From Candidatus Kapaibacterium sp. (GTDB taxonomy: Bacteria > Patescibacteriota > Patescibacteriia > UBA9934): a stretch of DNA of 64,000 nucleotides. The stretch covers positions 242,295 through 306,294 of the forward strand of contig JBILHA010000002.1 of NCBI GenBank assembly GCA_044350705.1. The letters are read 5' to 3'. The position numbers were made by a program, and so were the translations under genes. The notes beneath the pieces are model-generated. The model was not told the origin of the DNA. It did not search any database and saw only the letters and a list, made by a program, of their open reading frames with translations. Below are positions 1,859-26,570 of this stretch, one piece after another (the stretch's first letter is position 1; every line of letters begins with the position of its first letter).

Positions 1859-2412
1859 TCATTACGCTTGCCGGCCTCTCTGGGGCTGGAAAATCTACCG
1901 TCAAAAAAATTCTTGCCGACCGATTAGGATGGAAATCTTATTCCATGGGTGACATGCGCGGTGCATACGCACAAGAGCACGGAATGACCATTGATGAACT
2001 CAATGCTCTGGGCATGGAAGATCCTCAAACCGATGCGCTTGTGGATGAATTCCAAAAAGAACTCGGTGCACGAGAGGATAACTTTATTCTTGACGGCTGG
2101 CTCTCTTGGTATTTTATTCCGCAAAGTATTAAGGTCTTTTTAGACATTGACCCTGTCGAAGGAGCTCGACGCCTTTTTCGTGAGCAGCAGGATCACCCTG
2201 ACCATCGTCAGGATGAGCGAAAATACCGCGATATTGCCGATGTTCAAGAAACGCTTGCCCAGCGCGTCACGCAGAATCAGCAACGATATCAAAAGTGGTA
2301 TGGGGTCGATTTTCTCGATCCTGCTCATTACGATTTGCGCATTGATACCACCCCCCTGACGCCCGAGGAGGTAGCGGACCGCATCATGACCTATATTTCC
2401 TCGCGCGCTTGA
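1855..2412 (+). CDS. cmk: Cytidylate (CMP) kinase, short archaeal-type
   Basis: 185 aa. P-loop LAGLSGAGKST. ATG overlaps the rluD stop (ATGA coupling). Confidence 0.65.
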   Translation: MIITLAGLSGAGKSTVKKILADRLGWKSYSMGDMRGAYAQEHGMTIDELNALGMEDPQTDALVDEFQKELGAREDNFILDGWLSWYFIPQSIKVFLDIDPVEGARRLFREQQDHPDHRQDERKYRDIADVQETLAQRVTQNQQRYQKWYGVDFLDPAHYDLRIDTTPLTPEEVADRIMTYISSRA

Positions 2413-2472
2413 CGGTTTTTTGGTTTTTGGCTACCATTGGCGCATTCTTTTTTGGGAAATTCCCTCTTCAAT

Positions 2473-2820
2473 ATGGCACAAGTAAAAGACTACGCAGCAC
2501 TTGAACCTTCCGCTATTACTCCTGGGCAGGTTCTTCGCATTCATGAAAAGATCGTTGATATTGGCGCAAAAGGCGAAAAGCGTGAACGCGTCCAGATTTT
2601 CGAAGGCCTTGTTCTTGCTGTTCGCGGCGCAGGCCTTTCCAAGACCTTCACGATTCGCAAGGAAAGCAACGGATATGGGGTTGAGAAAATCTTCCCGGTC
2701 ACCACGCCTTCCATTGCAAAGATCGAATTGGTTAAGGCTTACCGCACCCGTCGTGCGCGTCTCACCTTCATCAAGGACTTTGCTCGTAAGTTGAAGGAAA
2801 TTGTTGTTGCAAAGGCGTAA
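2473..2820 (+). CDS. rplS: 50S ribosomal protein L19
   Basis: RVQIFEGLVLAVRGAGLSKTFTIRKESNGYGVEKIFPVTTP aligns with the conserved L19 core. The ORF track starts at a TTG (2437); the in-frame ATG at 2473 is preferred. Confidence 0.9.
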   Translation: MAQVKDYAALEPSAITPGQVLRIHEKIVDIGAKGEKRERVQIFEGLVLAVRGAGLSKTFTIRKESNGYGVEKIFPVTTPSIAKIELVKAYRTRRARLTFIKDFARKLKEIVVAKA

Positions 2821-2827
2821 TAAAAAA

Positions 2828-2860
2828 CTTCCTCGGGAAACCGAGGAAGTTTTTTATTTT
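2828..2860. terminator. Bidirectional rho-independent terminator between rplS (+) and the Cys-rich protein gene (-)
   Basis: cttcctcgg-gaaa-ccgaggaag perfect 9-bp stem with GAAA loop, followed by ttttttatttt. The reverse complement also ends in a U-tract. Confidence 0.8.
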
Positions 2861-4397
2861 ATGGCGTTAGGGTTACCGATCCTGAACATGCATAGTCATC
2901 AAATACATCGAATGCACCAAATCCTGTAAAGTTATCAAACACATCTTGTACCCAATTTGAGTCTACAAATCTACAGCTTCCTTGCTTCACCTCTCCTTTA
3001 TCGGCCAATTTACATGCGTCTTGCTCACACATCGAACCAAACACGTTCTTAAAGTCTTCAATTTGATCAGCAGATCCATAGTTGAGAATGTCCGCGATTC
3101 CGCCGCTTAAATCAACTCCATATGAATCAGCTTCGACATATTCATATGCTCCGCATCCATCTTCTAAGTCTGAAGCGACATCCTCGAGGAAGTAGCAATC
3201 AATATAGGTCCTTCCTTCCGTATAGAGAGCTACGCATTCATCTGCTCCTACTCCGTCTGCTCCAGAAAATTCAGAGAAGTCATCATCAAAATAGCAACTA
3301 TATACATGCTTGTCATTCGTCGCTCTCTTTTGCGCTTGTGAAGCTATTTGCGAACATACTGACGATGACGCCGTGAGACCGGTAGCAGAATTTAATGCTG
3401 ATACCTCTGCACATGAAACACACGTCCCCCCACTATTATCTCCTTTGATCACGCAGGATTTGCTCTTATCGTCACAGCCGCTATACATACAATCATCTCC
3501 CACTTCGGGAGGATTTGCGATGTTGAGGTTAATTTCATCATCTCCGCTTATCGTTCCCTTCTGCCCACACGTGCCGCTGATTTTCCCGTCGCTTGGGCAT
3601 GTACCGTCAATGCAAAATCCATATCCAAACAACGCCTCACACGTTGTGGCGTCATCAACCATCACCGCCTTTTTTACCAATGGGGGTCTGAGTTCATTAA
3701 ATCGAGTAAGGCGAGGATCTATAAGGTACGCGATGGCATATACCGACATGAGCAAAATGATCGCCGTGGCGGTATTGGCCATGCGGCCCTTTGCCTTTGC
3801 TACCGCGTTCTTATTCCCTCCTGCGGTCATGTACTGGAATCCCGCGATCGTAAACATGAGCGCACCAAAAATCCCCGCGACAGGGATCGCATAGGTGTAA
3901 ACAAGGTTTACATACGTTCCCAGGTTTGAAACCTGAGTTACCCCAAGAATAGGAACATTGAGCGTTACTGGCAGAAGTGGCCCATAGCAGTATCCCATCT
4001 CCGCCCCGGTTACCGATTGCTTGCTGCAATAGGGATTCTGATCACTCCACGTGCCTTTATACGTATCCCCCCCTATCTTTATCGGATAATCATTACACTC
4101 CTTTTCCGTCCAGCAGAGATTGCTATTCTCTGGATATGACGCTTCGTCCGCGAAGCATCCCACGTACGTCGCACCCCCATCTGCACATTCCGCAGCACAG
4201 GTGCTCGCGTCTTCTCTTCCTCCGATAGATCCTGCTCCTTGCTTCACGTCTCCACAAAAGCATTCACAGCTCGCTGCAATTGCTTGCGGAGCAAAAGATA
4301 TTCCCCAAAAAAACATCGCAACGACGAGTGCTATTCCTTTACTGAGCCAACGATTGTGCCGCTTCATACAAAATGCCATACGGGACTGCCCCTTCAA
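2859..4397 (-). CDS. Cysteine-rich (about 35 Cys) membrane protein; N-terminal signal/anchor plus a central two-TM hairpin reminiscent of VirB2/TrbC-type pilins; hypothetical
   Basis: 512-aa ORF. N-terminal hydrophobic segment LSKGIALVVAMFFWGISFAPQAIAAS. Two Cys-rich acidic domains (CECFCGD..., many CxxC, CxC, GTC motifs) separated by IPVAGIFGALMFTIAGFQYM - basic loop AGGNKNAVAKAKGRMANT - ATAIILLMSVYAIAYLI. Start overlaps the upstream dsbA-like gene. Confidence 0.6.
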   Translation of the reverse strand: MKGQSRMAFCMKRHNRWLSKGIALVVAMFFWGISFAPQAIAASCECFCGDVKQGAGSIGGREDASTCAAECADGGATYVGCFADEASYPENSNLCWTEKECNDYPIKIGGDTYKGTWSDQNPYCSKQSVTGAEMGYCYGPLLPVTLNVPILGVTQVSNLGTYVNLVYTYAIPVAGIFGALMFTIAGFQYMTAGGNKNAVAKAKGRMANTATAIILLMSVYAIAYLIDPRLTRFNELRPPLVKKAVMVDDATTCEALFGYGFCIDGTCPSDGKISGTCGQKGTISGDDEINLNIANPPEVGDDCMYSGCDDKSKSCVIKGDNSGGTCVSCAEVSALNSATGLTASSSVCSQIASQAQKRATNDKHVYSCYFDDDFSEFSGADGVGADECVALYTEGRTYIDCYFLEDVASDLEDGCGAYEYVEADSYGVDLSGGIADILNYGSADQIEDFKNVFGSMCEQDACKLADKGEVKQGSCRFVDSNWVQDVFDNFTGFGAFDVFDDYACSGSVTLTP

Positions 4398-5085
4398 TTT
4401 TTACTCCGTTTACGAACAATGTAGGGGTGGAAGTTACTCCCGCCGCAACACCGTCAGCGATGTCACCTGCGACCTCATTCTCGTAAAAATCTGATTCCAT
4501 GCATTGGATATATGTCCGTTTCTCCAAACCTGCCGAGAGGGCATACTGCAACAGATTTTCTTCCGTAAATTCCCCCGAGCTTTTATTGAGGAGCCTATAC
4601 ATTTCCTCATACTTTCCCTGCTCAGACGCGCATTCCGCTGCCATTGCTGCCTTATCTGCCCCTGGATGGAGGTCGGTGAGGGGAAAATCTCGCATGATCA
4701 CCCTTACTTTATCGCCCATATTACGTGCGATCGCTTCTAGCGCGTAACTTTCTTCTTGGGAATAGGGGCAGCCGAAGTCCGAGAAGGCAACGATCGTGAT
4801 GGGAGCATCCGCGGGGCCAAGCACCGGATCGTCCTCGGTTGCGAGCTCTCCACTCCCCTCGCTTTGTCTTGCCAACGCCGCAAGACGAGTTGCCGTAGCC
4901 TGGGTCGCATCGTATTTTTCCATGGGCAATAACTCTCCCGAGCGGAAATCCCGATAATAGGCAAAAATTTTCCAGGCAAACCCCCCCACCCCCACAAACA
5001 CCAATACAAATACGAAGGTTACAAGTGCTTTTACATAAGAAAATGCATGCCTGGGCCCTCCTTCCATATAGAAAAAGTATACCAT
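4339..5085 (-). CDS. DsbA-like thioredoxin-fold protein with monothiol CPYS active site, N-terminal membrane anchor
   Basis: 248 aa. FSDFGCPYSQ at the position of the DsbA CxxC; DNA tgc ccc tat tcc verified. C-terminal VTSTPTLFVNG is typical of the DsbA cis-Pro region. Hydrophobic N-terminus VTFVFVLVFVGVGGFAW. Confidence 0.7.
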   Translation of the reverse strand: MVYFFYMEGGPRHAFSYVKALVTFVFVLVFVGVGGFAWKIFAYYRDFRSGELLPMEKYDATQATATRLAALARQSEGSGELATEDDPVLGPADAPITIVAFSDFGCPYSQEESYALEAIARNMGDKVRVIMRDFPLTDLHPGADKAAMAAECASEQGKYEEMYRLLNKSSGEFTEENLLQYALSAGLEKRTYIQCMESDFYENEVAGDIADGVAAGVTSTPTLFVNGVKIEGAVPYGILYEAAQSLAQ

Positions 5086-5142
5086 CCCCTAAAATTCGTT
5101 CATCTTTACGCCCCCTCTCAGATTTGGTACACTCTCTTCGAT

Positions 5143-5358
5143 ATGATTTTGGATGTTATCCTTCTTATTCTCAGCGTACTTCTTTGTGGCGCTATCCTTC
5201 TTCAAGCTCGCGGTACCGACGCAGGGCTCGCATTTGGCGGAGATGGCAGCATGTATCGCACTCGCCGCGGCATTGAGAAATCTCTCCATGTAGGCACCAT
5301 TGTCCTTGCGGTACTCTTCTTTGTTACCGCGCTCTTGAACATGTTGTTTACTTGGTAA
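5143..5358 (+). CDS. secG: Preprotein translocase subunit SecG
   Basis: MILDVILLILSVLLCGAILLQARGTDAGLAFGG matches the SecG LLQxGKG..G..FG signature. The ORF track TTG start at 5047 gives an implausible extension. Confidence 0.8.
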   Translation: MILDVILLILSVLLCGAILLQARGTDAGLAFGGDGSMYRTRRGIEKSLHVGTIVLAVLFFVTALLNMLFTW

Positions 5359-5459
5359 ACGCACGTTCTCTGCTTCGCTCTCTTTTTTCACGCCTGGTTT
5401 CTCGAAAAAACGCCGGATCTCAATCGGGCGAACATTTGTCTCTTCGGCAGGTCAGCGCC

Positions 5460-7145
5460 ATGAAAGGCGGTAGGTACCTTCCTCGTTTTTCTCAAATTCA
5501 ACAGTTCCCTCGCATTCTTTCTTCCCTTGAGAAGCGCCTTTTCACCGCTGGGCTCGCGCTTTTCATATTAGGATCCGTCTTTCTCCTCATTGGAGGTTTT
5601 TCTCATTTTTTTGTTACCGTCCCTCAGCGCGGAGGCACGCTTACGGAAGGCATGCTCGGATATCCCCAGCTCATCAATCCCCTCTATGCCGATGCGAATA
5701 CCGTTGATCGTGAGCTGACCTCGCTTATTTATAGTGGCCTTCTTATTTACAATCCCACCTCCGATGCTCTTGAGCCTCATTTAGCGGAATCCTGGTCTTT
5801 AAGCGAAGATGAGAAAATGTACACTTTTACTCTCCGACAAGACGTTACTTGGCATGACGGAGAACCTTTTAGCGCATACGATGTCATTTTCACTTATTCT
5901 GCGCTCCAAAATGCCGCATACGGCAGTCCACTCTTTGATGCTTATCAAAATATTATTATTTCCCAGGTAGATGATCGTACGCTTACCTTTACGCTTGCCG
6001 AGCCTTACGCAGCATTTCCCGAACTTCTCACGGTAGGCATCCTTCCCGCCCACCTCTGGGAAGAAATAGCGCCTGCAAATGCTCGTCTCGTTGCGCTCAA
6101 CCTCAAGCCGGTTGGCACTGGTCCTTATCTTCTCGAAAAAACAAGCAAAGATTCTCGGGGTATTATTCGCAGCATCACTCTTCAAACTTTCGATGAGTAT
6201 CTCGGCATCCGCCCTTACCTCGATGAGATTATCGTTAAGTTCTTCTCAAACACCACGGACATCATGCAGGCGCTCCAGACAAAGCGCATCGATGCCACCG
6301 CTACTCTTTCTCTTACCGAAGCCCTCACCTTACAGGATGACAACGCACTTCGCATCACCCCCCTCCCGCTCTCTCAATACGTAGGGGCATTCTTCAATAC
6401 ACAAAAGGATCCGCTTAAGTCACTTGAAATCCGCAAGGCCCTCACCCTCTCACTTGATATTCCCGCCATCACCGCAGATGCAACAGGAAATCTGGGGCAG
6501 CCCACGGGATTCGCCCTGCCAGGCTTTCCTGCTACCGCCGCGAGCGTTCAGGATACTCAAACTGCCAGCCTCATCTTAGAAGAAGCTGGGTGGTCTCTCA
6601 ACGAGAACGGCAAGCGTACTCAAGGAAACAATGAGCTCACCCTTACTATCACCACCGCAGAACGCCCCGAGCTTCTGCGCGCCGCGGAAAAGGTAGCGGA
6701 AAACTGGAGATCTTTAGGCATTACCGTCACGGTCTCCCCCCTCTCCTACGCTGGCATTGCCACCGCTCTTCAAGAAAAGACCTACGATGTTCTTCTTGCC
6801 GCGGAGCAATATGGCATTATTGCCGATCCTTATCCATTCTGGCACTCCACAGGAAAGAATGCCGGCGGTCTCAATATGAGCCTCTTCTCGACTTCAGCAG
6901 CGGATACGGCGGTCAGTACTCTTCGAACTTCTGCAAATACTGAGAAGCGTCAAGAAGCGTTCAATACGCTCAATCAAGAACTTCTTGAGCACATGCCGGT
7001 CGTTTTCCTTTTCCAAAACGCCCTTCCGCTTGTCCATACCGTGGATATCATGGGGATAACTCCTGATGCCATCCCCCATACTTCTGCGCGCTGGCTCCTG
7101 GAATCTTCATGGTATCGCCGGACGGGCCTTTCTTGGAAGTTTTGA
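5460..7145 (+). CDS. ABC transporter substrate-binding protein, family 5 (OppA/DppA-like), membrane-anchored
   Basis: SBP_bac_5-like architecture in a 597-aa ORF; N-terminal TM LFTAGLALFILGSVFLLIGGF. ATG at 5460 preferred over the TTG at 5352. Confidence 0.75.
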   Translation: MKGGRYLPRFSQIQQFPRILSSLEKRLFTAGLALFILGSVFLLIGGFSHFFVTVPQRGGTLTEGMLGYPQLINPLYADANTVDRELTSLIYSGLLIYNPTSDALEPHLAESWSLSEDEKMYTFTLRQDVTWHDGEPFSAYDVIFTYSALQNAAYGSPLFDAYQNIIISQVDDRTLTFTLAEPYAAFPELLTVGILPAHLWEEIAPANARLVALNLKPVGTGPYLLEKTSKDSRGIIRSITLQTFDEYLGIRPYLDEIIVKFFSNTTDIMQALQTKRIDATATLSLTEALTLQDDNALRITPLPLSQYVGAFFNTQKDPLKSLEIRKALTLSLDIPAITADATGNLGQPTGFALPGFPATAASVQDTQTASLILEEAGWSLNENGKRTQGNNELTLTITTAERPELLRAAEKVAENWRSLGITVTVSPLSYAGIATALQEKTYDVLLAAEQYGIIADPYPFWHSTGKNAGGLNMSLFSTSAADTAVSTLRTSANTEKRQEAFNTLNQELLEHMPVVFLFQNALPLVHTVDIMGITPDAIPHTSARWLLESSWYRRTGLSWKF

Positions 7146-11124: not shown

Positions 11125-11327
11125 GGTCAAAAAGCACATCTTTTCTCTGGAAAAACAGTCCTTTGTGGCTGTTTTTTCTTTCTTTTTCAACGATCGCTTC
11201 TCTCTCATCGAGGCTCATCCTTGATTTTTTCACCTTTTTCTGGCATAGTCATGTCACTCAAAAGCCGCTCGGGTCACTCCGACCTCTGCGCTGATGAGCG
11301 ACCACCGAAGGAAAAGGACCAGCGACG

Positions 11328-11846
11328 TTGCAGCTCCATCACACCCCCCTCTTCCGTCGTCGCATCCCCCGCGGCAAGACCGGGAATACCGACCCGGTCA
11401 ACCGCCTCCGCCGAATGGCGGAGGCGGATGCCCGCCGCATCCGCGGCATGCTCTCCAAGACCCTCTCCAGCCGAGAGCGCGATGATCTGCAGGCGCTGCG
11501 CCGCCGGCTCGTCGATCTCCTCGCGCAGATGACCGAGCGCCCGTGGGATACCCCGGTGGGAGCCCACGAGGAGATCACCGGTACGATGGCCAAGGCGCGG
11601 CGGATCTACGCCCGCGCGCCCAAGCCCGACGGTCGCCGCCGGGCCAAGCGCCCGTCGGAGCAGAAGGGCGTCCGCGCCAAGAACCGGCCTATCGAGGATG
11701 GCCCGGAGGACCACCCCGATGAAGAGAACGAGAACGATCTCGACCGAAAGATCGCAGAGATCGTCCGGCGTTCTCGAGAGCCCCGCGCGGATCCCCGAGC
11801 CGAGGCCTTCTGGGCGGCCCAAGCGGCGGCGGCCACCAACAAGTAG
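11328..11846 (+). CDS. Hypothetical Arg-rich protein encoded in a high-GC island (about 65-70% GC versus 45-50% backbone)
   Basis: 172-aa ORF, charged and helical in character (LRRMAEADARRIRGMLSKTLSSRERDDLQALRRRLVDLLAQM...). Abrupt compositional shift 11270-11950. Own terminator downstream. ORFs on all frames here are GC artefacts; this is the longest sense-like one. Confidence 0.45.
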   Translation: MQLHHTPLFRRRIPRGKTGNTDPVNRLRRMAEADARRIRGMLSKTLSSRERDDLQALRRRLVDLLAQMTERPWDTPVGAHEEITGTMAKARRIYARAPKPDGRRRAKRPSEQKGVRAKNRPIEDGPEDHPDEENENDLDRKIAEIVRRSREPRADPRAEAFWAAQAAAATNK

Positions 11847-11914
11847 CCCCCCCGCGGGGGGAACCGCAACAGGCGGTCGGAGCGCACCGCGTTCCGACCG
11901 CCTCACGAACCCGT

Positions 11915-12383: not shown

Positions 12384-12840
12384 GCCTCATCGAGGCAAAC
12401 CCCCCACTCCGGCGCCTTGACGCCGGACTGCGAGAGAACCGTGCCCCTTCCTGACATCTTCGAGGTTCTTGAGGAGGAACTGCCTCCCCCGTGGCACCCA
12501 CAGCTGCGAAGCCTAAAGCTCCGCATCGGGCAGAGACCGGACAAGAGGGTGTCCGACCTGGTTCGAGAGGCTTTCTTTTACGAGCCGCGGAGGAACAAGC
12601 AACTGAGTCCATTTTTCAATGCCCGGGAAACCCGGGGGGTTCCCCTCCCCGAATACCTCGGCATGGATCCTGAAGTCCCCGAGGCAATTGCGAAAAGAGT
12701 ATGGGAGCGACTCATCTCGAATTCCTCCATCGTTGGTCCGCGGAACATGAGCGCTATCGTGAAACAAGGACTCGGGCTATAAAGCCCTTCCACATCCGGG
12801 CCGCTCCTCGCAAGGAGTCGGCCCGGATCGTTGTTTTTTT
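12384..12840 (+). ncRNA. Candidate GC-rich structured ncRNA or unknown transcript (about 450 nt) between a promoter and a terminator-like hairpin
   Basis: About 60% GC with many perfect local hairpins (ccggcg-ccttga-cgccgg, cccggg-aaa-cccggg, cctcgg...ccgagg). Terminal hairpin ccgggccgctcctcgcaaggagtcggcccgg (12796-12826) followed by a T-run 12834-12840. No convincing ORF on either strand. Confidence 0.3.
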
Positions 12841-12853
12841 AGAAAGTTCTTTA

Positions 12854-12882
12854 TTTACTTTCCATCATTTTTTTGATACTAT
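12854..12882 (+). promoter_or_regulatory. Candidate promoter TTTACT-17-TACTAT for RNase P RNA
   Basis: tttact (12854-12859), 17-nt spacer, tactat (12877-12882). Same -10 hexamer as the rRNA promoter. Predicted TSS coincides with the P1 5-prime strand. Confidence 0.5.
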
Positions 12883-12889
12883 TTCTCGA

Positions 12890-13463
12890 CCTGGCCAGCA
12901 AGACGATTGCCCCAAGAACTCAATCATAAGAAAGAGTGGGAGAACGTTCTTATTTTGGACTAGTTTCGGCGCGCGACGCTGCTTGGGTCGTCAAGACGTA
13001 CAAAATAGTACGTCGTCGACACAAGCAAGGAGCAAGCTGAAAATAGACGAAATAAGAACGTTCTCTTGGGGAGGAAAGTCCGAACACCCTTTATGCAGCA
13101 ATGCATATCGCAGAAAAGGCGTTGCTAACAGCAACCGCGCGTAAGCGTAGGGAAAGTCTCGTGCAAACGAAAGAATGCGCGGGGTCAGAACCTGCTGGAA
13201 ACGGCAGGCAATGACGCAACAGAGACATTCAAGCCCGCCCTGATTCGTTCGAGCGGGCAAAAGGTGAAACGTGTGGGGTGCGCAAGCTTCCCCACTCCCT
13301 GCATGGTGACATGCAGCGGTGGCAAACCCGCCTTGGTGCAAGAGCAAATTTGGTAGCTCGCGCTGAGCATGCTGGCGACAGCATGCCAAGAGAGATGATC
13401 GTCTCCCACTTCGCTCCTTCGGAGCTTCGTCGGGAACAGAATTCGGCTTATCAGTTGACCAGG
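12890..13463 (+). ncRNA. rnpB: RNase P RNA (bacterial type) with an unusually expanded 5-prime (P1-P3) region
   Basis: GGGGAGGAAAGTCCGAACACC (13068-13088; P4 5-prime strand) and ACAGAATTCGGCTTATCAG (13436-13454; P4 3-prime strand). GTGAAACG motif. P1 candidates cctggccag (12890-12898) / ttgaccagg (13455-13463). Core 13055-13463 is confident; the 5-prime boundary is less so. Confidence 0.7.
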
Positions 13464-13481
13464 TATGAAAAAATCCGTCGA

Positions 13482-14945
13482 ATGACGGATTTTTTCATTT
13501 CGGGCTTCCTTTTCCTGCTATACTTTCTTTATATGCGCCGCGCAGATTTAGCATTTGCTGCTCTCCTCGTTCCCCTTGATTACCTCGCGCTCCTCGCCGC
13601 CGCATCTTTTGCATACAGCTTACGTTTTGCGCCGTGGCTTACTACGTATATTCCCGTTCAATTTGCGCTTACCTATCGGGAATATATTCTCACTGCGATG
13701 GGTGTTGGCCTTATCTATCTCCTCACATTCGCTTTCTCTGGCCTGTATGCCGTACGACCAAAGGGGGGAATTCTTTCCGAGGCACTTCGCGTAGGTATTT
13801 CTTCTTCAGCGGCGATGGCGGTTGTTCTGGCGATCGCCTTCTTCTCTCGCGAACTTTTTGATTCTCGCTTTATCATGCTCGCTGCATGGGGTTTTGCTAT
13901 TCTTTTTGTTTCTACAGCCCGGATTGGCGTGCGTTATATTCAAAAAGCTGTCCGTCTTTTTGGCATTGATGTCACTTCGCTTGTCGTCATTGGCAAAACA
14001 AAGACCAGTCAGAATCTTCTTCATACCCTTGCCGCGCATCCGAGTTGGGGCTATCGCGTGGCGCTCAATCTTCCTCATTTTTCTTCGGACATTGAAAAGA
14101 AATTGCGCACTCTTCGTCGTGAAGGACGCATTGACGGTATTCTTCTCGCTAATCCAAATGCCTCACGCGAAGAAATTCTTGCGGCGAAAACTTTTTCCGA
14201 CAATGAGCATCTCACCTTTCTCTATAGTGCGGATATTTTTGCGGGAAGCACGCTTCGCCCTATTACCCACTCCTTCGGAGATTCTCCGGTCATTGAAGTA
14301 CCAAAGACACCTTTGGATGGATGGGGAGCTATTTATAAAAGAATGTTCGATATCGTCGGCTCGCTTCTGCTCATTATCCTGACCCTTCCTCTTCAGCTTC
14401 TCATCGCCCTCCTGATTGTGATCGATTCTCCTGGAGGTATTTTCTTTTCACGTCTTCCGGGCGGAGGAAAAGCGATGCGCGTCGGTCAGTACGGCAAGCT
14501 CTTTCATTACTTTAAGTTCCGAAGCATGTATCGCGATCGTCACTTTGAGCGCTACAACGAGCTTGCTGCACACAATACTCGTTCGGGGCCTTTGGTTAAA
14601 ATCAATAATGATCCCCGTATCACTCGCATAGGAAGATTTATCCGGAAGACTTCCCTCGATGAGCTCCCCGAGTTTTGGCTTGTGCTTATGGGCCGCATGA
14701 GCCTTGTGGGGCCCCGCCCGCACCTTCCTGAAGAAGTAGATAAATATCGCCCTGAACACCGACGCGTCCTTACCATTAAGCCTGGAATTACCGGCCTTCC
14801 GCAGATCAGCGGCCGTGCCGCGCTTGACTTTGACGACGAAGTTCGCCTAGATATGCACTATATTGAGAACTGGACGCCTTGGCTGGATATTACTATTCTC
14901 CTTAAAACCCCCTTTGTTGTTCTCCTTCGCAAAGGAGCTTCTTAA
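13482..14945 (+). CDS. Undecaprenyl-phosphate sugar phosphotransferase (WbaP / exopolysaccharide polyprenyl glycosylphosphotransferase family)
   Basis: C-terminal bacterial sugar transferase domain DELPEFWLVLMGRMSLVGPRPHLPEE; N-terminal TM helices. Start moved to the ATG at 13482 because 13278-13463 is RNase P RNA. Confidence 0.8.
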   Translation: MTDFFISGFLFLLYFLYMRRADLAFAALLVPLDYLALLAAASFAYSLRFAPWLTTYIPVQFALTYREYILTAMGVGLIYLLTFAFSGLYAVRPKGGILSEALRVGISSSAAMAVVLAIAFFSRELFDSRFIMLAAWGFAILFVSTARIGVRYIQKAVRLFGIDVTSLVVIGKTKTSQNLLHTLAAHPSWGYRVALNLPHFSSDIEKKLRTLRREGRIDGILLANPNASREEILAAKTFSDNEHLTFLYSADIFAGSTLRPITHSFGDSPVIEVPKTPLDGWGAIYKRMFDIVGSLLLIILTLPLQLLIALLIVIDSPGGIFFSRLPGGGKAMRVGQYGKLFHYFKFRSMYRDRHFERYNELAAHNTRSGPLVKINNDPRITRIGRFIRKTSLDELPEFWLVLMGRMSLVGPRPHLPEEVDKYRPEHRRVLTIKPGITGLPQISGRAALDFDDEVRLDMHYIENWTPWLDITILLKTPFVVLLRKGAS

Positions 14946-14954
14946 TTCCCTTGT

Positions 14955-16070
14955 ATGCGCGTTGCCCTTGTCCATGACCATTTACTCCAACAAGGAGGAG
15001 CAGAACGCGTTTTAGAAGCTTTCGCGGCCCTTTGGCCCCAGGCCCCTCTCTATACCCTCGCAATGGATCGGGTCCAATTTTCTCATTTTGGTCATCGTGA
15101 AATTTATACCTCTTTTTTGGACCGCCTTCCCCTTGGACGTACGTTCTTCCGCTGGCTTCTCCCGCTCATGCCCACTGCCATCGAGAGCTTTGATTTGCGG
15201 AATGCCGATGTCGTCGTTTCGAGCGTGAGCGCTCTTGCAAAAGGCGTCATTACCCATCCGCACACCATCCACATTTGCTACTGTCACACCCCTACTCGCT
15301 ACCTCTGGTCTGAAACCCAGGAGTACATTGAAGAGCTGGATGCTCCTCGCTTTGTCAAACGTACTCTTCCTCCAATGCTTTCTTGGCTGCGCACTTGGGA
15401 TCGCATTGCCGCAGAACGAGTGGACGTTTTTATTGCAAATTCAGAAACGGTTCGCAAACGCATTAAAAAATACTACGGGAAAGAAAGTATCGTCATTCAC
15501 CCGCCTGTTGATATCGATCGCTTTTCCGTAAGCGATACTCCAGAAAAGAAATACTTTCTTGCAGGAGGACGTCTCGTTGCCTACAAGCGCTTCGACATTA
15601 TTGTTGATGCTTTTACTAAACTTGGAAAACCGCTCGTCATCTTCGGTACCGGTCCTGCAGAGGGGGATCTTCGTCGACGCGCAGGAAAAAATATTACGTT
15701 CGTTGGGCGCGTGAGTGACGAGGAACGTTCTCGGCTTTTTTCTGAAGCGATTGCCTTCATTCATCCGCAAGAGGAGGACTTTGGCATCACGGCTGTCGAA
15801 AGTATGGCCTCAGGGCGCCCAGTTATTGCCTATGCAAAGGGGGGCGCATCAGAAACGGTTATCGAAGGCCTCACGGGCACGCTCTTTTACGAACAGTCCG
15901 CTGAGGAACTCATGGATACCATTCTCCACTTTTCTCCCGAAGCTTTTTCTCCGACAAAGATCCGTGCATTTGCAGATAAATTTTCTCCACATGCATTCCG
16001 GGAACGGATGCTTGCCTTAGTCAGAGAACATTACACTCGGCATAAACAAGATACTCTCGGAGACCGCTAG
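14955..16070 (+). CDS. Glycosyltransferase family 4 (GT-B)
   Basis: EEDFGITAVESMASGRPVIA EX7E-type motif; 371 aa. Confidence 0.8.
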   Translation: MRVALVHDHLLQQGGAERVLEAFAALWPQAPLYTLAMDRVQFSHFGHREIYTSFLDRLPLGRTFFRWLLPLMPTAIESFDLRNADVVVSSVSALAKGVITHPHTIHICYCHTPTRYLWSETQEYIEELDAPRFVKRTLPPMLSWLRTWDRIAAERVDVFIANSETVRKRIKKYYGKESIVIHPPVDIDRFSVSDTPEKKYFLAGGRLVAYKRFDIIVDAFTKLGKPLVIFGTGPAEGDLRRRAGKNITFVGRVSDEERSRLFSEAIAFIHPQEEDFGITAVESMASGRPVIAYAKGGASETVIEGLTGTLFYEQSAEELMDTILHFSPEAFSPTKIRAFADKFSPHAFRERMLALVREHYTRHKQDTLGDR

Positions 16071-16073
16071 TCC

Positions 16074-17192
16074 ATGTCGCGCATTGCTATTGATATTCGA
16101 CCGCTCGTTGATCGCCACATGACTGGCGTGGGTTTTGCCCTCCTTGAAGCGCTTCGCATACTCCTTCCGCACGCCTCTCCTGCTCGTGAATATCTTCTTT
16201 TTGTCTCAGGAAGCGATGAAACTCTTTCCCGACTCCCTGAGCTTCCCCGAAATCCTCATGTCACCCTTATTAAAAAAAACATCCCCAATAAACTCGTTAC
16301 TCTTTGGTCGCTCTTTCAAAACGATGCGCTGGATAACCTCATTGGTGAGCCTTTTGATGCCTGGTGGTTCCCAAATTGGACGGTCATCTCCACGCAAAAG
16401 CCCTTCGCTCTCACCGTGCATGATGCAAGCTTCGTTCATACTCCCCACTTCTATACGCGTCTTGATCGTGCCCTTGTTCGCCTTGCTCAGCCTCATCGTG
16501 CCGCAGAACGCGCCATCCACTGCATCACCGTCTCTCCCCATACCGCGGCGGATATTCAAGATCTTTGGTGTCTTTCCCCCGCGAAAATTCACATTGCCCC
16601 CCTCGGTGTTGATCCTTCTTTTTTTGGCATTCGAGAGCAGCCGTCAGATCGGTCTTATCGAGCGAGCTACGACTTAAATCGCCCGTATCTTTTATCACTT
16701 GCAACGCACGAACCGAGAAAAAATATCATTGGCATTCTTGAGGGGTATCAAGAGGCTCGGCGCATTTCCCCTCACGCTCTTCCTCCCCTTGTTCTTGCCG
16801 GAGTCCATCGTCAACATCTCCCCCCTCACCTTCTTGAGCACGTACACATTCTCGGATATATCCCCAGCAAACACCGCGCCGCACTTTTGCGAGGTGCATA
16901 TGCGCTTCTTTTTCCCTCATTTAACGAAGGTTTCGGCCTCCCCGTTGCTGAAGCGCTCTCCTGTGGAACCCCCGTTGTTACCAGCGTCGCCACCCCCCCA
17001 AGCTCTCTTTTTTCCTCCGGAGTTTTTCCTGCCGACCCTTACAATATCGCCGACATTGCAAGCGCCCTCCTGTCCTGCTTACGCTACGGAAAGGATTCTG
17101 AAAAGCAGCTTCTCATGCACGAACAAACACGCCCTTTCACATGGAAAAGGCATGTCGATGTTTTAGAGCATGTTTTTCAACGTCTTTGTTAG
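16074..17192 (+). CDS. Glycosyltransferase (GT-B, GT4/GT1-like)
   Basis: FNEGFGLPVAEALSCGTPVV motif; 372 aa. Confidence 0.75.
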   Translation: MSRIAIDIRPLVDRHMTGVGFALLEALRILLPHASPAREYLLFVSGSDETLSRLPELPRNPHVTLIKKNIPNKLVTLWSLFQNDALDNLIGEPFDAWWFPNWTVISTQKPFALTVHDASFVHTPHFYTRLDRALVRLAQPHRAAERAIHCITVSPHTAADIQDLWCLSPAKIHIAPLGVDPSFFGIREQPSDRSYRASYDLNRPYLLSLATHEPRKNIIGILEGYQEARRISPHALPPLVLAGVHRQHLPPHLLEHVHILGYIPSKHRAALLRGAYALLFPSFNEGFGLPVAEALSCGTPVVTSVATPPSSLFSSGVFPADPYNIADIASALLSCLRYGKDSEKQLLMHEQTRPFTWKRHVDVLEHVFQRLC

Positions 17193-19078: not shown

Positions 19079-19080
19079 AT

Positions 19081-21747: not shown

Positions 21748-22814
21748 TTATACCTCTTCGCTTGACGCGCCGCGGAAGCAATCAAGGTTTTCCATGTTTC
21801 TGGAGATTCAACCGCATGCTTCATAACGGCCGCCCATGCTGAGGGATCTTCTGCGGGAACAAACTGCGCACTCTCCTTGAGGGTTTCGTGGAAGATTGGA
21901 ATATCACTTACGGCGATAGGCGTCTTGAGGAGCGCAGCCTCAAGGGGAGGGATGCCAAACCCTTCAATACGAGCGGGATGGGCGACGAGTGATGCGTGCG
22001 TAATTAGTTCATGTATTTCACCATCGGTGGGGGCATGGATAAAGCGCACCCGTTCACTTACCCCGAGACGCTCAGCGGTCTTTTTTACTTTTTCTCCAAA
22101 GGCGTCATATCTCCCTGCGAATACAAGCTGCAACTGCGGTATATCTTCGCATTCCTTCAGCGCTTCAAGAAGTACCCCTTGATTTTTATGAGGGTACATA
22201 TTCCCCAACGCTAATACATAGGGCTTGTTCACCCCCATTCCCTCGATACTTGCTTGTTTATCGTACGCGGGTGGCTTTACCCCCTGATATACTACAGAGA
22301 TTTTTTGAGGTTTCACTCGAAAATGCGAAAGGATACTCCTCTTCGTGTAGCCAGAGACCGCTACAATATGACGCGATGCATGCACGGCATGCTCAAGTAC
22401 GTGTCGAAATGCCGCGTATTTCACTCCATGCACAATCGCATTTCTTGTTGTTGCATGTGCGGCCTGCCTGTCCTCAAGAGGGATCAGGTCATGCAGCGTC
22501 ACGATAAAAGGTACGCGGGACCAAAGAGGAACATTCCAATGCGGGTAATGCATTGCCTGTACCTTGGATAACAAAATTTCCTTTGGAAATGCGAACTGTT
22601 CCTTCGCTGAATACCAGGGAATATCTACTAAGCGTTTTGAAAAATTTTTTCGTTTGATGACAAAATCATGGAAGTTCTCTTTTTTGAGAAAAACCACATA
22701 TTCTGTTTCTTTATCGATCTCCTGCAGATGCATCACTAACTCAGCGATGTAGCGGCCAATACCGCCACCGCCAACGCGTGGTCCAAACATGCGGGCATCA
22801 ATACCCAACCTCAT
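21684..22814 (-). CDS. Glycosyltransferase family 4
   Basis: 376 aa with GT-B fold motifs (HDLIPLE..., EGFGIPPLEA). Confidence 0.8.
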   Translation of the reverse strand: MRLGIDARMFGPRVGGGGIGRYIAELVMHLQEIDKETEYVVFLKKENFHDFVIKRKNFSKRLVDIPWYSAKEQFAFPKEILLSKVQAMHYPHWNVPLWSRVPFIVTLHDLIPLEDRQAAHATTRNAIVHGVKYAAFRHVLEHAVHASRHIVAVSGYTKRSILSHFRVKPQKISVVYQGVKPPAYDKQASIEGMGVNKPYVLALGNMYPHKNQGVLLEALKECEDIPQLQLVFAGRYDAFGEKVKKTAERLGVSERVRFIHAPTDGEIHELITHASLVAHPARIEGFGIPPLEAALLKTPIAVSDIPIFHETLKESAQFVPAEDPSAWAAVMKHAVESPETWKTLIASAARQAKRYNWEECAKEMKEVYLTHAFPRL

Positions 22815-22853
22815 GCAGGTATTTTATCATGCCGTGTACAAAAAATGTGCACA

Positions 22854-23279
22854 CTACTCCTCCCCACTCGATCGTCTTGTTGCCTTCTTTTGTCCGAGTT
22901 TCTTTTTTTGTGTGATACGACGCTCTCGAGAACTTCTCGTCGGTCTTGTAGGAATGCGAACTTCAGGGACATGGAGTGCGTCTCGAATAAGTTCTTCAAG
23001 TCTGGCTTTTGCGAGGTGTTTATTCTCGAGTTGTGAACGTGTCGTTTGGCTCTTTGCGGTAAGCTCTCCCTCTTGCGTCAGTTGATGGCGTAATTTCTCC
23101 CCCAATCTCCGACGCTCTTCGTAGGTCAACATCGTTAAACGCCAAATATTTACCCGCGCACGTACTGCTGAGTCTGTGGTATTTACTCCCTGCCCTCCTT
23201 TTCCTCCTGACCGCATCGTTTCGTAGGAAATGAGGTGATCAGGAAGTATGAAATTTCGATAGAGACTCCCCCGCGTCAT
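22854..23279 (-). CDS. arfB: Peptidyl-tRNA hydrolase ArfB (alternative ribosome-rescue factor, RF-1 domain with GGQ)
   Basis: 141 aa. GGKGGQGVNTTDSAV GGQ motif plus basic C-terminal tail. Confidence 0.75.
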   Translation of the reverse strand: MTRGSLYRNFILPDHLISYETMRSGGKGGQGVNTTDSAVRARVNIWRLTMLTYEERRRLGEKLRHQLTQEGELTAKSQTTRSQLENKHLAKARLEELIRDALHVPEVRIPTRPTRSSRERRITQKKKLGQKKATRRSSGEE

Positions 23280-23281
23280 AC

Positions 23282-24229: not shown

Positions 24230-24231
24230 AT

Positions 24232-24774: not shown

Positions 24775-24780
24775 ATGTTC

Positions 24781-25788: not shown

Positions 25789-25792
25789 ACAT

Positions 25793-26551: not shown

Positions 26552-26570
26552 ACTTGCGACACATCTTACC

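What the first reader, a model, noticed from the sequence alone, without database searches (positions are those of the whole stretch)
2859..5085. Coupled pair: cysteine-rich membrane protein with a pilin-like TM hairpin plus a CxxS (monothiol) DsbA-like protein
The 512-aa protein has about 35 cysteines concentrated in two acidic ectodomains. These are separated by a hydrophobic helix, a short basic loop and a second hydrophobic helix. That arrangement is reminiscent of VirB2/TrbC-type pilin cores.

Its start overlaps the stop of a membrane-anchored DsbA-like thioredoxin-fold protein. In that protein the catalytic motif is CPYS rather than CxxC (verified in the DNA as tgc ccc tat tcc).

A monothiol DsbA homologue dedicated to an adjacent heavily disulfide-bonded surface protein suggests a specialised folding, isomerase or mixed-disulfide tethering system for a surface appendage. 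I do not recognise the Cys-rich protein family.
Basis: partly seen in the sequence, partly recalled or inferred. Interest (0 to 1): 0.55.

Follow-up and report, generated by a model that had tools for sequence, protein, structure and literature searches.

The report
Cysteine-rich pilin fusion plus one-cysteine DsbA
An uncultured Patescibacteria bacterium carries two overlapping genes: one for a surface protein made of a secretion-pilus membrane hairpin between two domains that together hold 28 conserved cysteines, and one for a disulfide-bond enzyme that has naturally lost one of its two catalytic cysteines. The pair is real and conserved and is probably a client with its folding helper, but no experiment has tested this.

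Summary
The ORF at 2859-4397(-) encodes a Sec-exported protein with 28 mature cysteines (the ORF holds 29, not about 35). Its order is signal peptide, 10-Cys N-ectodomain, helical hairpin, then an acidic 18-Cys C-ectodomain. The hairpin passes Pfam's cut-off for PF18895 T4SS_pilin.

The start of this gene overlaps the 3' end of a membrane-anchored DsbA-family gene (4339-5085(-)), whose active site reads CPYS. The serine is not a sequencing error. All 31 close homologues checked have CP[YF][ST], the serine uses all four TCN codons across loci, and the clade is monophyletic.

The pair, with its 20-47 nt overlap, recurs in 10 of 13 distinct loci. Related genomes hold a second locus in which a canonical CxxC DsbA precedes paralogous hairpin proteins, some of which carry peptidoglycan-hydrolase domains.

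Every orthologue has an even cysteine count in each ectodomain. This fits fully paired disulfides and argues against a permanent mixed-disulfide tether. The ectodomains have no detectable relatives in Pfam, PDB or BFVD.

The best reading is an ectodomain-bearing VirB2-like pilin with a monothiol disulfide-shuffling helper. Two facts weaken "dedicated": three loci keep the CxxS enzyme without the partner gene, and one partnered enzyme reads CPYC. I rate it a new variant of known kinds, of moderate interest.

The parts
4339..5085 (-). DsbA-family thioredoxin-fold protein (248 aa; possibly starting at M7, nt 5067) with an N-terminal membrane anchor and a monothiol active site
   Evidence: PF13462 E 4e-23 and PF01323 E 8e-16. 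AF2 model pLDDT 88.9. Foldseek top hit 3gyk with target TM-score 0.85 and rmsd 1.9, followed by ScsC, TsdA/MdbA, alpha-DsbA2, BdbD and BcfH. PDB profile search gives 3gyk at E 1.5e-26.
4939..5037 (-). N-terminal transmembrane and juxtamembrane helix of the DsbA-like protein (residues 17-49), with residues F36, W38 and G50 invariant
   Evidence: Kyte-Doolittle windows above 1.6 at residues 13-45. AF2 helix 17-49. Invariant columns among 7 orthologues.
4759..4770 (-). Active-site codons TGC CCC TAT TCC, encoding C106-P-Y-S109 (CxxS, not CxxC)
   Evidence: Read directly from the DNA. CP[YF][ST] is present in all 31 close cluster representatives checked. The Ser codon is TCC, TCG, TCA or TCT in different loci. 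C106 is invariant in a 50-sequence alignment.
4423..4428 (-). T220-P221, the cis-proline loop of the thioredoxin fold
   Evidence: T220 and P221 are invariant in 50 sequences and in 7 orthologues.
4501..4632 (-). Stretch bounded by C152 and C195, a second invariant cysteine pair in the helical insert (probable structural disulfide)
   Evidence: Both are invariant in the orthologues. They are present together (CC) in the whole CxxS clade and absent together in many CxxC relatives.
4339..4379 (-). Overlap between the 3' end of the DsbA-like gene and the start of the Cys-rich gene (ATG at 4379 or 4367), implying translational coupling
   Evidence: ATG offsets of -41 and -29 nt here, and -20 to -47 nt in ten other loci. 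Orthologue N-termini align at MAFCMKR or MKR.
2859..4379 (-). Cys-rich VirB2-like hairpin protein (506 aa from M7 or 502 aa from M11; 28 Cys in the mature part)
   Evidence: ORF. 28 full-length or near-full-length cluster representatives, all carrying PF18895. Alignment.
4275..4367 (-). Sec-type signal peptide: MKRHNRWLSKGIALVVAMFFWGISFAPQAIA, followed by AS
   Evidence: The sequence shows a basic n-region, a hydrophobic core and an AxA-like end. AF2 helix at model residues 2-24, numbered from M11. Cleavage is inferred, not tested.
3981..4274 (-). N-terminal ectodomain with 10 invariant Cys (C44, 46, 48, 67, 71, 81, 95, 101, 124, 137), including the CxCxC motif
   Evidence: Invariant columns. 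Even Cys count (10 or 12) in 22 of 22 orthologues. AF2 block pLDDT 76-88.
3660..3980 (-). Conserved 'neck' motifs (LNVPILG; LIDPRLTRFNELRPPLVK) flanking the two long helices and the basic loop GFQYMTAGGxKxAVxKAKxR. The PF18895 match covers residues 157-226 (nt 3720-3929)
   Evidence: PF18895 at 31.2 bits against a 26.6-bit gathering score, covering model positions 3-71 of 71. AF2 helices at model residues 149-181 and 186-215. This is the most conserved region, at 60% mean pairwise identity. The same loop motif occurs in 112-148 aa Cys-free pilins of other Patescibacteria.
2862..3659 (-). C-terminal acidic ectodomain with 18 Cys: 15 invariant, one (C475) at least 90% conserved, and C262/C267 present or absent only as a pair
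   Evidence: phmmer against 1.84 billion representatives finds only 24 relatives, and in all but three short (204-285 aa) hits the match begins at residues 178-236 of a 413-636 aa protein, the same position as here. No Pfam, PDB-sequence, Foldseek PDB or BFVD match.

Best explanation
This is a two-gene, translationally coupled envelope module of a Patescibacteria chromosome.

Gene 2 encodes an ectodomain-bearing VirB2-like pilin. After Sec export and signal-peptide cleavage, the two long helices insert as a hairpin with the basic loop in the cytoplasm. Both Cys-rich domains then lie outside the cell, where they fold around 5 and 8-9 intradomain disulfides respectively.

Gene 1 encodes a membrane-anchored DsbA-fold protein that keeps the nucleophilic Cys106 and the cis-Pro loop but has Ser in place of the resolving Cys.

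Proposed mechanism:
1. The monothiol enzyme cannot store or donate a disulfide, so it cannot act as a standard oxidase.
2. Its single thiolate attacks mispaired disulfides in the nascent client. The client's own thiols then resolve the mixed disulfide.
3. This is redox-neutral shuffling combined with a holdase role. It needs no DsbD-like reductant and cannot be switched off by oxidation.
4. The first oxidation comes from the CxxC DsbA paralogue encoded at a second hairpin-protein locus, or from ambient oxidant.
5. The folded product stays membrane-anchored, or is drawn into the T4SS-type pilus as a minor or tip subunit that displays a fast-evolving, disulfide-braced surface.

Shown here: gene structures, folds, conservation, coupling and Cys parity. 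Inferred: the disulfides themselves, the isomerase chemistry, the source of oxidation and any pilus incorporation.
For: Client architecture:
- PF18895 is matched above its gathering score.
- A signal peptide, two hydrophobic helices and a basic loop are present.
- 25 invariant and one near-invariant Cys.
- Cys counts are even in each ectodomain in 22 of 22 orthologues, and Cys are gained or lost only in pairs.

Enzyme:
- DsbA fold.
- C106, T220 and P221 are invariant.
- CxxS is fixed in a monophyletic clade, with all four TCN Ser codons in use.
- The retained nucleophile argues for thiol chemistry rather than a dead enzyme.

Coupling:
- The start/stop overlap of 20-47 nt is conserved in all 10 paired loci.
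- The pair persists where flanking genes differ (L007).

Parallel locus B:
- A CxxC DsbA (CPSC, CEGC, CGSC or CASC) sits directly upstream of paralogous hairpin proteins in the same genomes.
- DsbA-to-hairpin-protein is therefore a repeated design with two kinds of active site.
- The NCBI names of P0041 (99% identical to the window enzyme) and of P0029 (locus-B type) share the locus-tag prefix EBT31, which I read as one assembly.

Precedents:
- F-like T4SSs encode their own thioredoxin-fold isomerase TrbB and the CxxC-less TraF, alongside TraN (22 Cys), TraU and TraH (PMC11315126).
- BcfH is an oxidase/isomerase that contributes to Salmonella fimbrial biogenesis (PMC8405906).
- Monothiol (CxxS) PDI variants retaining isomerase activity is established knowledge recalled from memory, not tested here.

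Surface variability: the hairpin is 60% identical between orthologues, the N-domain 48% and the C-domain 40% (35% when Cys are excluded).
Against: - No biochemical or expression data exist.
- Three loci forming one subclade (L010, L032, L033) keep the CP[YF]S enzyme between secG and rplS with no Cys-rich gene beside it. The enzyme must therefore have another role, or the client gene moved.
- One orthologous pair (L001) has CPYC, so the monothiol state is not obligatory for this client.
- No virB4 or other T4SS gene, and no second pilin gene, lies in the 64-kb window. The pilus link rests on the hairpin homology alone.
- The neighbourhood is housekeeping and syntenic (secG, rplS, cmk-like, rluD), so part of the adjacency is simple inheritance.
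- Patescibacteria generally lack a respiratory chain (PMC10633639). Most standard DsbA re-oxidation routes pass through quinones (my own knowledge), so the source of oxidising power is unclear.
- No VKOR or DsbB is present in the window.
- The AF2 model of the client is only moderate (pLDDT 74, pTM 0.45).
Confidence: 0.45

Rival explanations
1. The monothiol DsbA-like protein is a general envelope thiol-exchange or redox-maintenance factor of this lineage. The Cys-rich hairpin protein is only one of several substrates, placed next to it by inheritance rather than by a private partnership.
For: - Three loci keep the CxxS enzyme at the same secG-rplS position without the Cys-rich gene.
- The whole neighbourhood is syntenic housekeeping.
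- These genomes encode other exported Cys-rich proteins, including the locus-B hairpin proteins with 12-18 Cys.
Against: - The start/stop overlap is conserved in all 10 paired loci.
- The pair persists when the downstream flank changes.
- An independent DsbA-to-hairpin-protein arrangement exists at locus B.
Confidence: 0.2
2. The DsbA-like protein is a redox-inert assembly chaperone, analogous to F-plasmid TraF (a thioredoxin fold without CxxC). It binds the hairpin protein, or helps its membrane insertion or extraction, without thiol chemistry.
For: - The resolving Cys is lost.
- TraF is a precedent (PMC11315126).
- The transmembrane and juxtamembrane segment is unusually conserved (F36, W38, G50 invariant), hinting at a membrane-level interaction.
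Against: C106 and the cis-Pro loop are invariant across the clade, and in 50 sequences that include catalytic relatives. A purely non-redox protein would not be expected to keep the nucleophile. TraF lost the CXXC active site (PMC11315126).
Confidence: 0.1
3. The single Cys106 forms a long-lived intermolecular disulfide with the Cys-rich protein. This would be covalent tethering or retention in the manner of ERp44, making the two proteins a stable heterodimer on the surface.
For: CxxS thioredoxin-fold proteins tend to accumulate mixed disulfides (established knowledge from CxxS trapping mutants; not tested here). Both proteins are membrane-anchored and co-translated.
Against: Every orthologue has an even number of Cys in each ectodomain (10 or 12, and 16 or 18). 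No unpaired partner cysteine is available. The L001 enzyme has CPYC. Three loci lack the partner.
Confidence: 0.07
4. The monothiol enzyme is still an oxidase but uses other chemistry, for example a Cys106 sulfenic acid or a mixed disulfide with a host-derived small thiol. This would suit an organism without a quinone-linked DsbB or VKOR.
For: Patescibacteria generally lack a respiratory chain (PMC10633639). No VKOR or DsbB is found in the window.
Against: The same genomes keep a canonical CxxC DsbA at locus B, so dithiol oxidases are in use. I know of no precedent within the DsbA family (my knowledge, plus the limited literature search).
Confidence: 0.08
5. The cysteines of the ectodomains bind metals (Zn or Fe-S type clusters) rather than forming disulfides, and the adjacent thioredoxin-fold protein is unrelated to their folding.
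For: CxCxC and CxxC-like spacings occur: SCECFCG, and C326-x2-C329.
Against: - The domains are extracytoplasmic (signal peptide plus hairpin topology).
- Cys counts are always even, and Cys are gained or lost in pairs.
- No His or extra Asp/Glu partners are conspicuously co-conserved in the invariant list.
- A Dsb gene is translationally coupled to the gene.
Confidence: 0.05

Closest known systems
VirB2-like pilins of Patescibacteria (Pfam PF18895 T4SS_pilin; PMC12102498, PMC10633639)
   Same: - Signal peptide, two long hydrophobic helices and a short basic loop.
- Passes the PF18895 gathering score.
- Shares the loop motif [AS]G[FL]QY[MA]TAG with 112-148 aa canonical pilins of Gottesmanbacteria, Falkowbacteria, Saccharibacteria and Paceibacteria.
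   Different: - About 470 aa mature instead of about 100-150 aa.
- Carries a 10-Cys domain before the hairpin and a 16-18-Cys domain after it.
- Stands alone between secG and rplS rather than in a pilin array or near virB4.
- Coupled to a DsbA-like gene, which PMC12102498 and PMC10633639 do not mention.
DsbA family of the Gram-positive / ScsC type: 3gyk, BdbD (3eu3), C. diphtheriae TsdA/MdbA (4pwo, 7unn, 5c00), ScsC (4gxz, 4xvw), Wolbachia alpha-DsbA2 (6eez)
   Same: - Thioredoxin fold with a helical insert.
- N-terminal membrane anchor.
- Thr-cisPro loop.
- Extra structural Cys pair in the insert.
- CP-aromatic dipeptide in the active site.
   Different: The active site is CPYS. The resolving cysteine is replaced by Ser in a whole monophyletic clade. 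All wild-type solved relatives that I inspected or know of have CxxC.
F-like plasmid T4SS thioredoxin-fold proteins TrbB (isomerase) and TraF (no CxxC), with their Cys-rich clients TraN, TraU and TraH (PMC11315126)
   Same: Same concept: a pilus or T4SS-related system that brings its own thioredoxin-fold folding factor for heavily disulfide-bonded surface components. One such factor has an incomplete active site.
   Different: - No sequence relationship was found: no TraF or TrbB family appears in the Pfam results.
- Monoderm-type host, and a membrane-anchored DsbA fold rather than a soluble periplasmic protein with a thioredoxin domain.
- The client is itself the pilin-like protein.
- The genes are chromosomal and not in a T4SS cluster.
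Salmonella BcfH, a DsbA-like oxidase/isomerase that contributes to fimbrial biogenesis (PMC8405906; PDB 7jve)
   Same: A DsbA-fold enzyme tied to a surface-fibre system, with isomerase activity. It is a structural neighbour of the window protein (E about 1e-8).
   Different: BcfH has CSWC (a dithiol) and is trimeric. The window protein is monothiol, and its oligomeric state is unknown.
Eukaryotic natural CxxS members of the PDI family (yeast Eug1p, ERp44); recalled from memory, not tested here
   Same: A natural monothiol thioredoxin-fold active site in an oxidative folding compartment. Such proteins act by isomerisation or mixed-disulfide retention.
   Different: Different family (PDI a-domains, not the DsbA fold), a different kingdom and soluble ER proteins.

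Membership tests
PF18895 T4SS_pilin / VirB2-like pilin | Profile match at or above Pfam's gathering score over the whole model | tested here: met
   31.2 bits against 26.6, covering model positions 3-71 of 71 at residues 157-226. All 28 family members carry PF18895 in the precomputed annotation.
PF18895 T4SS_pilin / VirB2-like pilin | Cleavable signal peptide followed by two hydrophobic helices joined by a short basic loop | tested here: met
   Hydropathy segments and loop charge. AF2 helices at model residues 149-181 and 186-215. Cleavage itself was not tested.
PF18895 T4SS_pilin / VirB2-like pilin | Small protein consisting essentially of the hairpin (about 100-150 aa) | tested here: not met
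   502-506 aa, with ectodomains of about 100 aa and about 270 aa. Canonical relatives are 112-148 aa.
PF18895 T4SS_pilin / VirB2-like pilin | Encoded near virB4 or other T4SS genes, or in a pilin array | tested here: not met
   All window ORFs of at least 597 aa were scanned or identified and none is VirB4. There is no second hairpin ORF in 64 kb. Neighbours are secG, rplS, cmk-like and rluD in every locus.
PF18895 T4SS_pilin / VirB2-like pilin | Polymerises into a T4SS-dependent pilus | not testable with these tools
   Needs microscopy or biochemistry.
DsbA family (PF01323 / PF13462) | Profile match above the gathering score | tested here: met
   PF13462 at 82.7 bits against 23.2, and PF01323 at 58.9 bits against 25.6.
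DsbA family (PF01323 / PF13462) | Thioredoxin fold with an inserted helical domain, and a cis-Pro loop | tested here: met
   AF2 pLDDT 88.9. Foldseek hit to 3gyk with target TM-score 0.85 and rmsd 1.9. T220-P221 invariant.
DsbA family (PF01323 / PF13462) | Catalytic CxxC dithiol | tested here: not met
   CPYS here. CP[YF][ST] in all 31 close cluster representatives checked, against CxxC in 79 more distant ones.
DsbA family (PF01323 / PF13462) | Re-oxidising partner (DsbB or VKOR) in the genome | tested here: inconclusive
   A full-length query carrying a VKOR domain (P0130) hit only the DsbA-like ORF in the window. The rest of the genome could not be searched.
NF041057 Rcas_1661 thioredoxin-like (seleno)lipoprotein | Score at or above the NCBIfam cut-off | tested here: not met
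   70.1 bits against a cut-off of 190.
F-plasmid TraF / TrbB thioredoxin-fold T4SS proteins | Sequence membership in the TraF or TrbB families | tested here: not met
   No such family appears among the Pfam or NCBIfam matches at E up to 1. The similarity is functional analogy only.
NF045849 Mbov_0395 pilin-like conjugal transfer protein (Mycoplasma ICE) | Score at or above the NCBIfam cut-off | tested here: not met
   19.4 bits against 40, although it aligns over positions 6-76 of 80 on the hairpin. This indicates a distant relationship only.

The most novel reading that the evidence does not exclude
In Patescibacteria the VirB2-like hairpin is a general mounting module. Through it, cells load disulfide-braced binding domains and cell-wall-degrading enzymes (M23, M15, NlpC/P60, C39-like) onto a T4SS-derived surface fibre used against the host cell. 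This lineage has evolved a matched two-enzyme folding service for that 'armed pilus': a CxxC DsbA as oxidase at one locus, and a naturally monothiol DsbA as a reductant-independent isomerase at the other. The monothiol enzyme would be the first natural CxxS DsbA-family isomerase, showing how a minimal genome does without DsbC and DsbD.
Probability: 0.2. Interest if true: 0.8.

Novelty: new variant of a known kind. Interest (0 to 1): 0.55.

Why it matters
- Patescibacteria make up a large share of bacterial diversity, and their T4SS-type pilins are essential for epibiotic growth in the one system tested (PMC10633639). What those pilins display to the host is unknown.
- This locus shows that the pilin hairpin can carry large, fast-evolving, disulfide-braced ectodomains, and in paralogues peptidoglycan hydrolases. 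Such proteins come with their own DsbA genes.
- A naturally monothiol DsbA conserved across a clade is an unusual redox enzyme. If it is an isomerase, it shows how a minimal genome can proofread disulfides without a DsbC/DsbD electron pathway, and it gives a compact tool for oxidative folding.
- If it is not an isomerase, it is still a clean natural experiment on what the second cysteine of DsbA is for.

Tried and rejected
- Sequencing error for CxxS: rejected. It is conserved in 31 cluster representatives, with four synonymous Ser codons in use.
- The JGI gene call starting at M28 (P0001, 485 aa), which would remove the overlap: rejected. Orthologues align from MAFCMKR or MKR, and M28 would truncate the signal peptide.
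- A known family for the ectodomains: none found. Searches were Pfam and NCBIfam at E up to 1, a PDB sequence profile, Foldseek against PDB and BFVD (best E 1.8 and 0.4, helical-hairpin matches only), and phmmer of the C-domain against 1.84 billion representatives (24 hits, no sign of any other domain architecture).
- Homology between the N-terminal Cys modules of the window family and the locus-B family: the shared CxC...CAxxC pattern looked suggestive, but hhalign gave 1.8% probability. I do not claim it.
- Similarity of the window ectodomains to the Cys-rich pilin fusions of Saccharibacteria and Paceibacteria: no phmmer hit.
- T4SS genes, a second pilin, VKOR/DsbB or another thioredoxin in the window: none found.
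- Promoter and terminator scans of 2400-5500: fewer matches than in shuffled sequence, so uninformative.
- Stable mixed-disulfide tether: disfavoured by Cys parity.
- Checking Cys-Cys distances in the AF2 model: not possible, because coordinates are not exposed.


Full report
**1. What is in the sequence**

Two minus-strand ORFs occupy 2859-5085.

The downstream ORF (2859-4397) is 512 aa from the most upstream TTG.
- It has 29 cysteines, not about 35. One lies at residue 10, ten at residues 44-137 and eighteen at residues 253-504. None lies in residues 138-252.
- Net charge is -9 for residues 45-165 and -32 for residues 250-512.
- Two hydrophobic segments begin at about residues 165 and 207. 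They flank the loop TAGGNKNAVAKAKGR.
- Orthologues begin at MAFCMKR or MKR. The real start is therefore ATG 4379 or 4367, which gives a classical signal peptide (MKRHNRWLSKGIALVVAMFFWGISFAPQAIA, followed by AS).
- That start overlaps the upstream gene's stop codon (4339-4341) by 41 or 29 nt.
- A public gene call starting at M28 (P0001) would remove the overlap, but it would also truncate the signal peptide.

The upstream ORF (4339-5085) is 248 aa.
- It has an N-terminal hydrophobic helix.
- It has strong Thioredoxin_4 and DSBA matches.
- Its motif is C106-P-Y-S109, encoded by TGC CCC TAT TCC.

**2. Host and surroundings**

Homologues come from Patescibacteria metagenome-assembled genomes.

The neighbours are housekeeping genes:
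- On one side: rluD-like, cmk-like and rplS.
- On the other side: secG (divergent), a family-5 solute-binding protein, RNase J and trpS.

The 64-kb window contains no VirB4-sized T4SS ATPase among the ORFs of at least 597 aa. It has no second hairpin protein, no VKOR-like ORF and no other thioredoxin-like CxxC ORF.

**3. The Cys-rich protein**

*Hairpin.* Residues 157-226 match Pfam PF18895 (T4SS_pilin) over the whole model at 31.2 bits, above the 26.6-bit gathering score. A Mycoplasma ICE pilin-like family is matched below its cut-off.

*Family and conservation.* The family has 28 full-length or near-full-length cluster representatives at 32-100% identity, all annotated with PF18895. In a 22-sequence alignment:
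- 25 of the 28 mature Cys are invariant and C475 is at least 90% conserved.
- C262 and C267 lie in a CIDGxC insert that is present or absent as a unit.
- Every orthologue has an even Cys number in each ectodomain: 10 or 12, and 16 or 18. One read-through sequence has 26.

This parity, the extracytoplasmic topology and the adjacent Dsb gene make 5 plus 8-9 intradomain disulfides the natural reading. It is inferred, not shown.

*Structure.* AlphaFold2 with the family alignment gives pLDDT 74 and pTM 0.45. It shows two helices of about 30 residues (model residues 149-181 and 186-215) between mixed alpha/beta ectodomains.

*No known relatives for the ectodomains.*
- Foldseek finds nothing beyond helical hairpins in PDB (best E 1.8) or BFVD (best E 0.4).
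- A PDB sequence profile search finds nothing.
- The C-domain alone has only 24 relatives among 1.84 billion representative proteins. In all but three short (204-285 aa) hits, the match begins at residues 178-236 of a 413-636 aa protein, the same position as here.

*Rates.* The hairpin with its flanking motifs (LNVPILG; LIDPRLTRFNELRPPLVK) is the most conserved part at 60% mean pairwise identity. The N-domain is 48% and the C-domain 40% (35% without Cys). The picture is a fixed scaffold with a variable surface.

**4. The hairpin belongs to real pilins, and fusions are common**

The loop motif [AS]G[FL]QY[MA]TAG retrieved loci from Gottesmanbacteria, Falkowbacteria, Saccharibacteria and Paceibacteria. 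There the motif sits in 112-148 aa Cys-free proteins, often in tandem arrays. These are the VirB2-like pilin arrays described in PMC12102498, and pilins of this kind were found to be essential in Southlakia epibionticum (PMC10633639).

The same loci also encode larger hairpin proteins:
- Hairpin plus Big_5 or Big_7 Ig-like domains (L021).
- N-terminal domains of 16-20 Cys followed by a C-terminal hairpin (L024, L027, L029).
- A 502-aa, 22-Cys protein with a central hairpin (L029).

None of these shows sequence similarity to the window's ectodomains, and none has a DsbA-like gene within 3 kb. Ectodomain-bearing pilin-like proteins are therefore a broader Patescibacteria theme. Neither paper I searched on this point (PMC12102498, PMC10633639) describes it.

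**5. The DsbA-like protein**

*Fold.* AlphaFold2 gives pLDDT 88.9. Foldseek places it firmly in the DsbA fold:
- The top hit is 3gyk, with target TM-score 0.85 and rmsd 1.9.
- It is followed by ScsC, C. diphtheriae TsdA/MdbA, Wolbachia alpha-DsbA2, BdbD and BcfH.
- The sequence profile search agrees.

*Conserved residues.* C106 and the T220-P221 cis-Pro loop are invariant in 50 sequences. C152 and C195 form a second invariant pair in the helical insert.

*The CxxS motif is selected.*
- All 31 close cluster representatives checked (P0041-P0069, P0072, P0073) read CP[YF][ST]. 79 more distant relatives read CxxC.
- The Ser codon is TCC, TCG, TCA or TCT in different loci. It is therefore a selected state, not an error.
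- A neighbour-joining tree without support values puts the CxxS proteins in one clade, with a single CPYC member (L001) nested inside. That looks like a one-nucleotide reversion.

*Other conserved feature.* The transmembrane and juxtamembrane segment is conserved (F36, W38, G50), which is unusual for a mere anchor.

**6. Is the pair a unit?**

For:
- In 10 of 13 distinct loci the DsbA-like gene is followed by the Cys-rich gene, with a 20-47 nt overlap.
- This includes L007, where the downstream neighbour is a superoxide dismutase gene instead of rplS.
- Related genomes carry a second locus (B), in this order: two unannotated proteins, a DsbA of about 214 aa, one or two hairpin proteins, then radA.
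- The locus-B DsbAs read CPSC, CEGC, CGSC and CASC and form a separate clade.
- Hairpin proteins of the locus-B type carry C-terminal Peptidase_M23, M15_4 or NlpC/P60 domains, or another Cys-rich domain. P0030, with a C39_2-like domain, has the same build, but its locus was not examined.
- The NCBI names of P0041 (99% identical to the window enzyme) and P0029 (locus-B type) share the locus-tag prefix EBT31. I read that as one assembly, so the window organism probably has both loci.

Against a strictly private partnership:
- One subclade (L010, L032, L033) keeps a CP[YF]S enzyme between secG and rplS with no hairpin gene nearby.
- The L001 pair works with CPYC.

**7. Mechanism**

A DsbA fold with only the nucleophilic cysteine cannot hold a disulfide, so it cannot act as a standard oxidase. 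It can still attack substrate disulfides and let substrate thiols resolve the adduct. That is the minimal requirement for disulfide isomerisation. It is established for CxxS variants and natural CxxS members of the PDI family; this is my own knowledge, not tested here.

Such an enzyme needs no DsbD-type reductant, and an oxidase cannot inactivate it. That would suit a minimal genome. A client with 13-14 disulfides is exactly the kind of protein that needs shuffling.

I therefore favour a monothiol shuffling and holdase factor, translationally coupled to its main client, with first oxidation by the CxxC paralogue or by ambient oxidant (confidence 0.45).

Rivals:

| Rival | Confidence | Main point |
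|---|---|---|
| General, non-dedicated envelope thiol-exchange factor | 0.20 | Supported by the three partner-less loci |
| Redox-inert, TraF-like chaperone | 0.10 | Weakened by the invariant Cys106 |
| Oxidase using unconventional chemistry | 0.08 | A CxxC DsbA is still in use at locus B |
| Permanent mixed-disulfide tether | 0.07 | Weakened by Cys parity |
| Metal-binding rather than disulfide cysteines | 0.05 | Domains are extracytoplasmic and Cys counts are even |

Whether the client stays a membrane-anchored surface protein or enters a T4SS-type fibre as a minor or tip subunit cannot be decided here. The termini of VirB2/TraA pilins face the outside of the pilus (my own knowledge), so appended domains are geometrically conceivable. 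No T4SS gene is nearby, however.

**8. Comparison and novelty**

The closest known systems are:
- Patescibacteria VirB2-like pilins. The hairpin is the same, but size, context and partner differ.
- Gram-positive-type DsbA, ScsC and BcfH enzymes. The fold is the same, but the active site is incomplete.
- F-plasmid TrbB and TraF with the 22-Cys TraN (PMC11315126). This is an analogue by concept only.

I found no description of a natural CxxS DsbA-family clade, or of DsbA-coupled pilin fusions, in the searchable library. That library is incomplete.

I rate the finding a new variant of known kinds, with interest 0.55. The most novel reading that the evidence does not exclude is a modular 'armed pilus' with a matched oxidase and isomerase pair. 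I give that about 0.2 probability.

Noticed in passing
L017 369-1577; L018 2656-3840 and 3844-5286; L019 2665-4005; L020 2596-4002; L034 4001-5374: A second conserved locus in related genomes. A CxxC DsbA of about 214 aa is followed by one or two PF18895 hairpin proteins, then radA. Cluster representatives of these hairpin proteins carry C-terminal Peptidase_M23, M15_4 or NlpC/P60 domains, or another Cys-rich domain. These are pilin hairpins fused to cell-wall hydrolases.
   Followed up: partly
L010 3995-4783; L032 4001-4771; L033 2410-3180: One subclade keeps the monothiol CP[YF]S DsbA-like gene between secG and rplS but has no Cys-rich hairpin gene beside it. Whether that gene moved elsewhere or was lost is unknown.
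   Followed up: partly
L021 2692-4638 and 4611-6131; L024 3245-4210; L027 4461-5444; L029 28-1533 and 4579-5490: Other Patescibacteria (unclassified Patescibacteria, Saccharibacteria, Paceibacteria) encode PF18895 hairpins fused to Ig-like Big_5 or Big_7 domains, or to ectodomains of 16-22 Cys. In L024, L027 and L029 these lie next to runs of small pilin genes. They show no sequence similarity to the window's ectodomains.
   Followed up: partly
window 50146-53370: 23S rRNA (50343-53370, minus strand) and 5S rRNA (50146-50254, minus strand), with no 16S rRNA gene anywhere in the 64-kb window. The rRNA operon is therefore unlinked.
   Followed up: no
window 13043-13466: RNase P RNA (class A, 103.7 bits, just above the gathering score of 100). 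It overlaps the mechanical ORFs 12701-13144 and 13278-14945, so those ORF boundaries are probably wrong at these ends.
   Followed up: no
window 13278-27515: A run of envelope and glycan genes: Bac_transf sugar transferase, a 629-aa DUF11/A2M-like protein, an 888-aa DUF4012 protein, a GT4 glycosyltransferase and several unscanned ORFs.
   Followed up: no
window 58454-60766 and 42928-44208: A 770-aa protein with Lamin Tail Domain matches, and a YkuD L,D-transpeptidase fused to FG-GAP repeats. Both are probable surface proteins.
   Followed up: no
window 11274-11906: Long ORFs rich in Arg and Glu overlap on both strands (210 aa on the minus strand, 172 aa on the plus strand) in a slightly GC-richer stretch. 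It is unclear which one, if either, is a gene.
   Followed up: no
window 5047-5143: The mechanical secG ORF starts at 5047 and would overlap the DsbA-like start at 5085. Orthologous SecG proteins are 71 aa, so secG probably starts near 5143. That leaves a short divergent intergenic region shared with the DsbA-like and pilin-like pair.
   Followed up: partly
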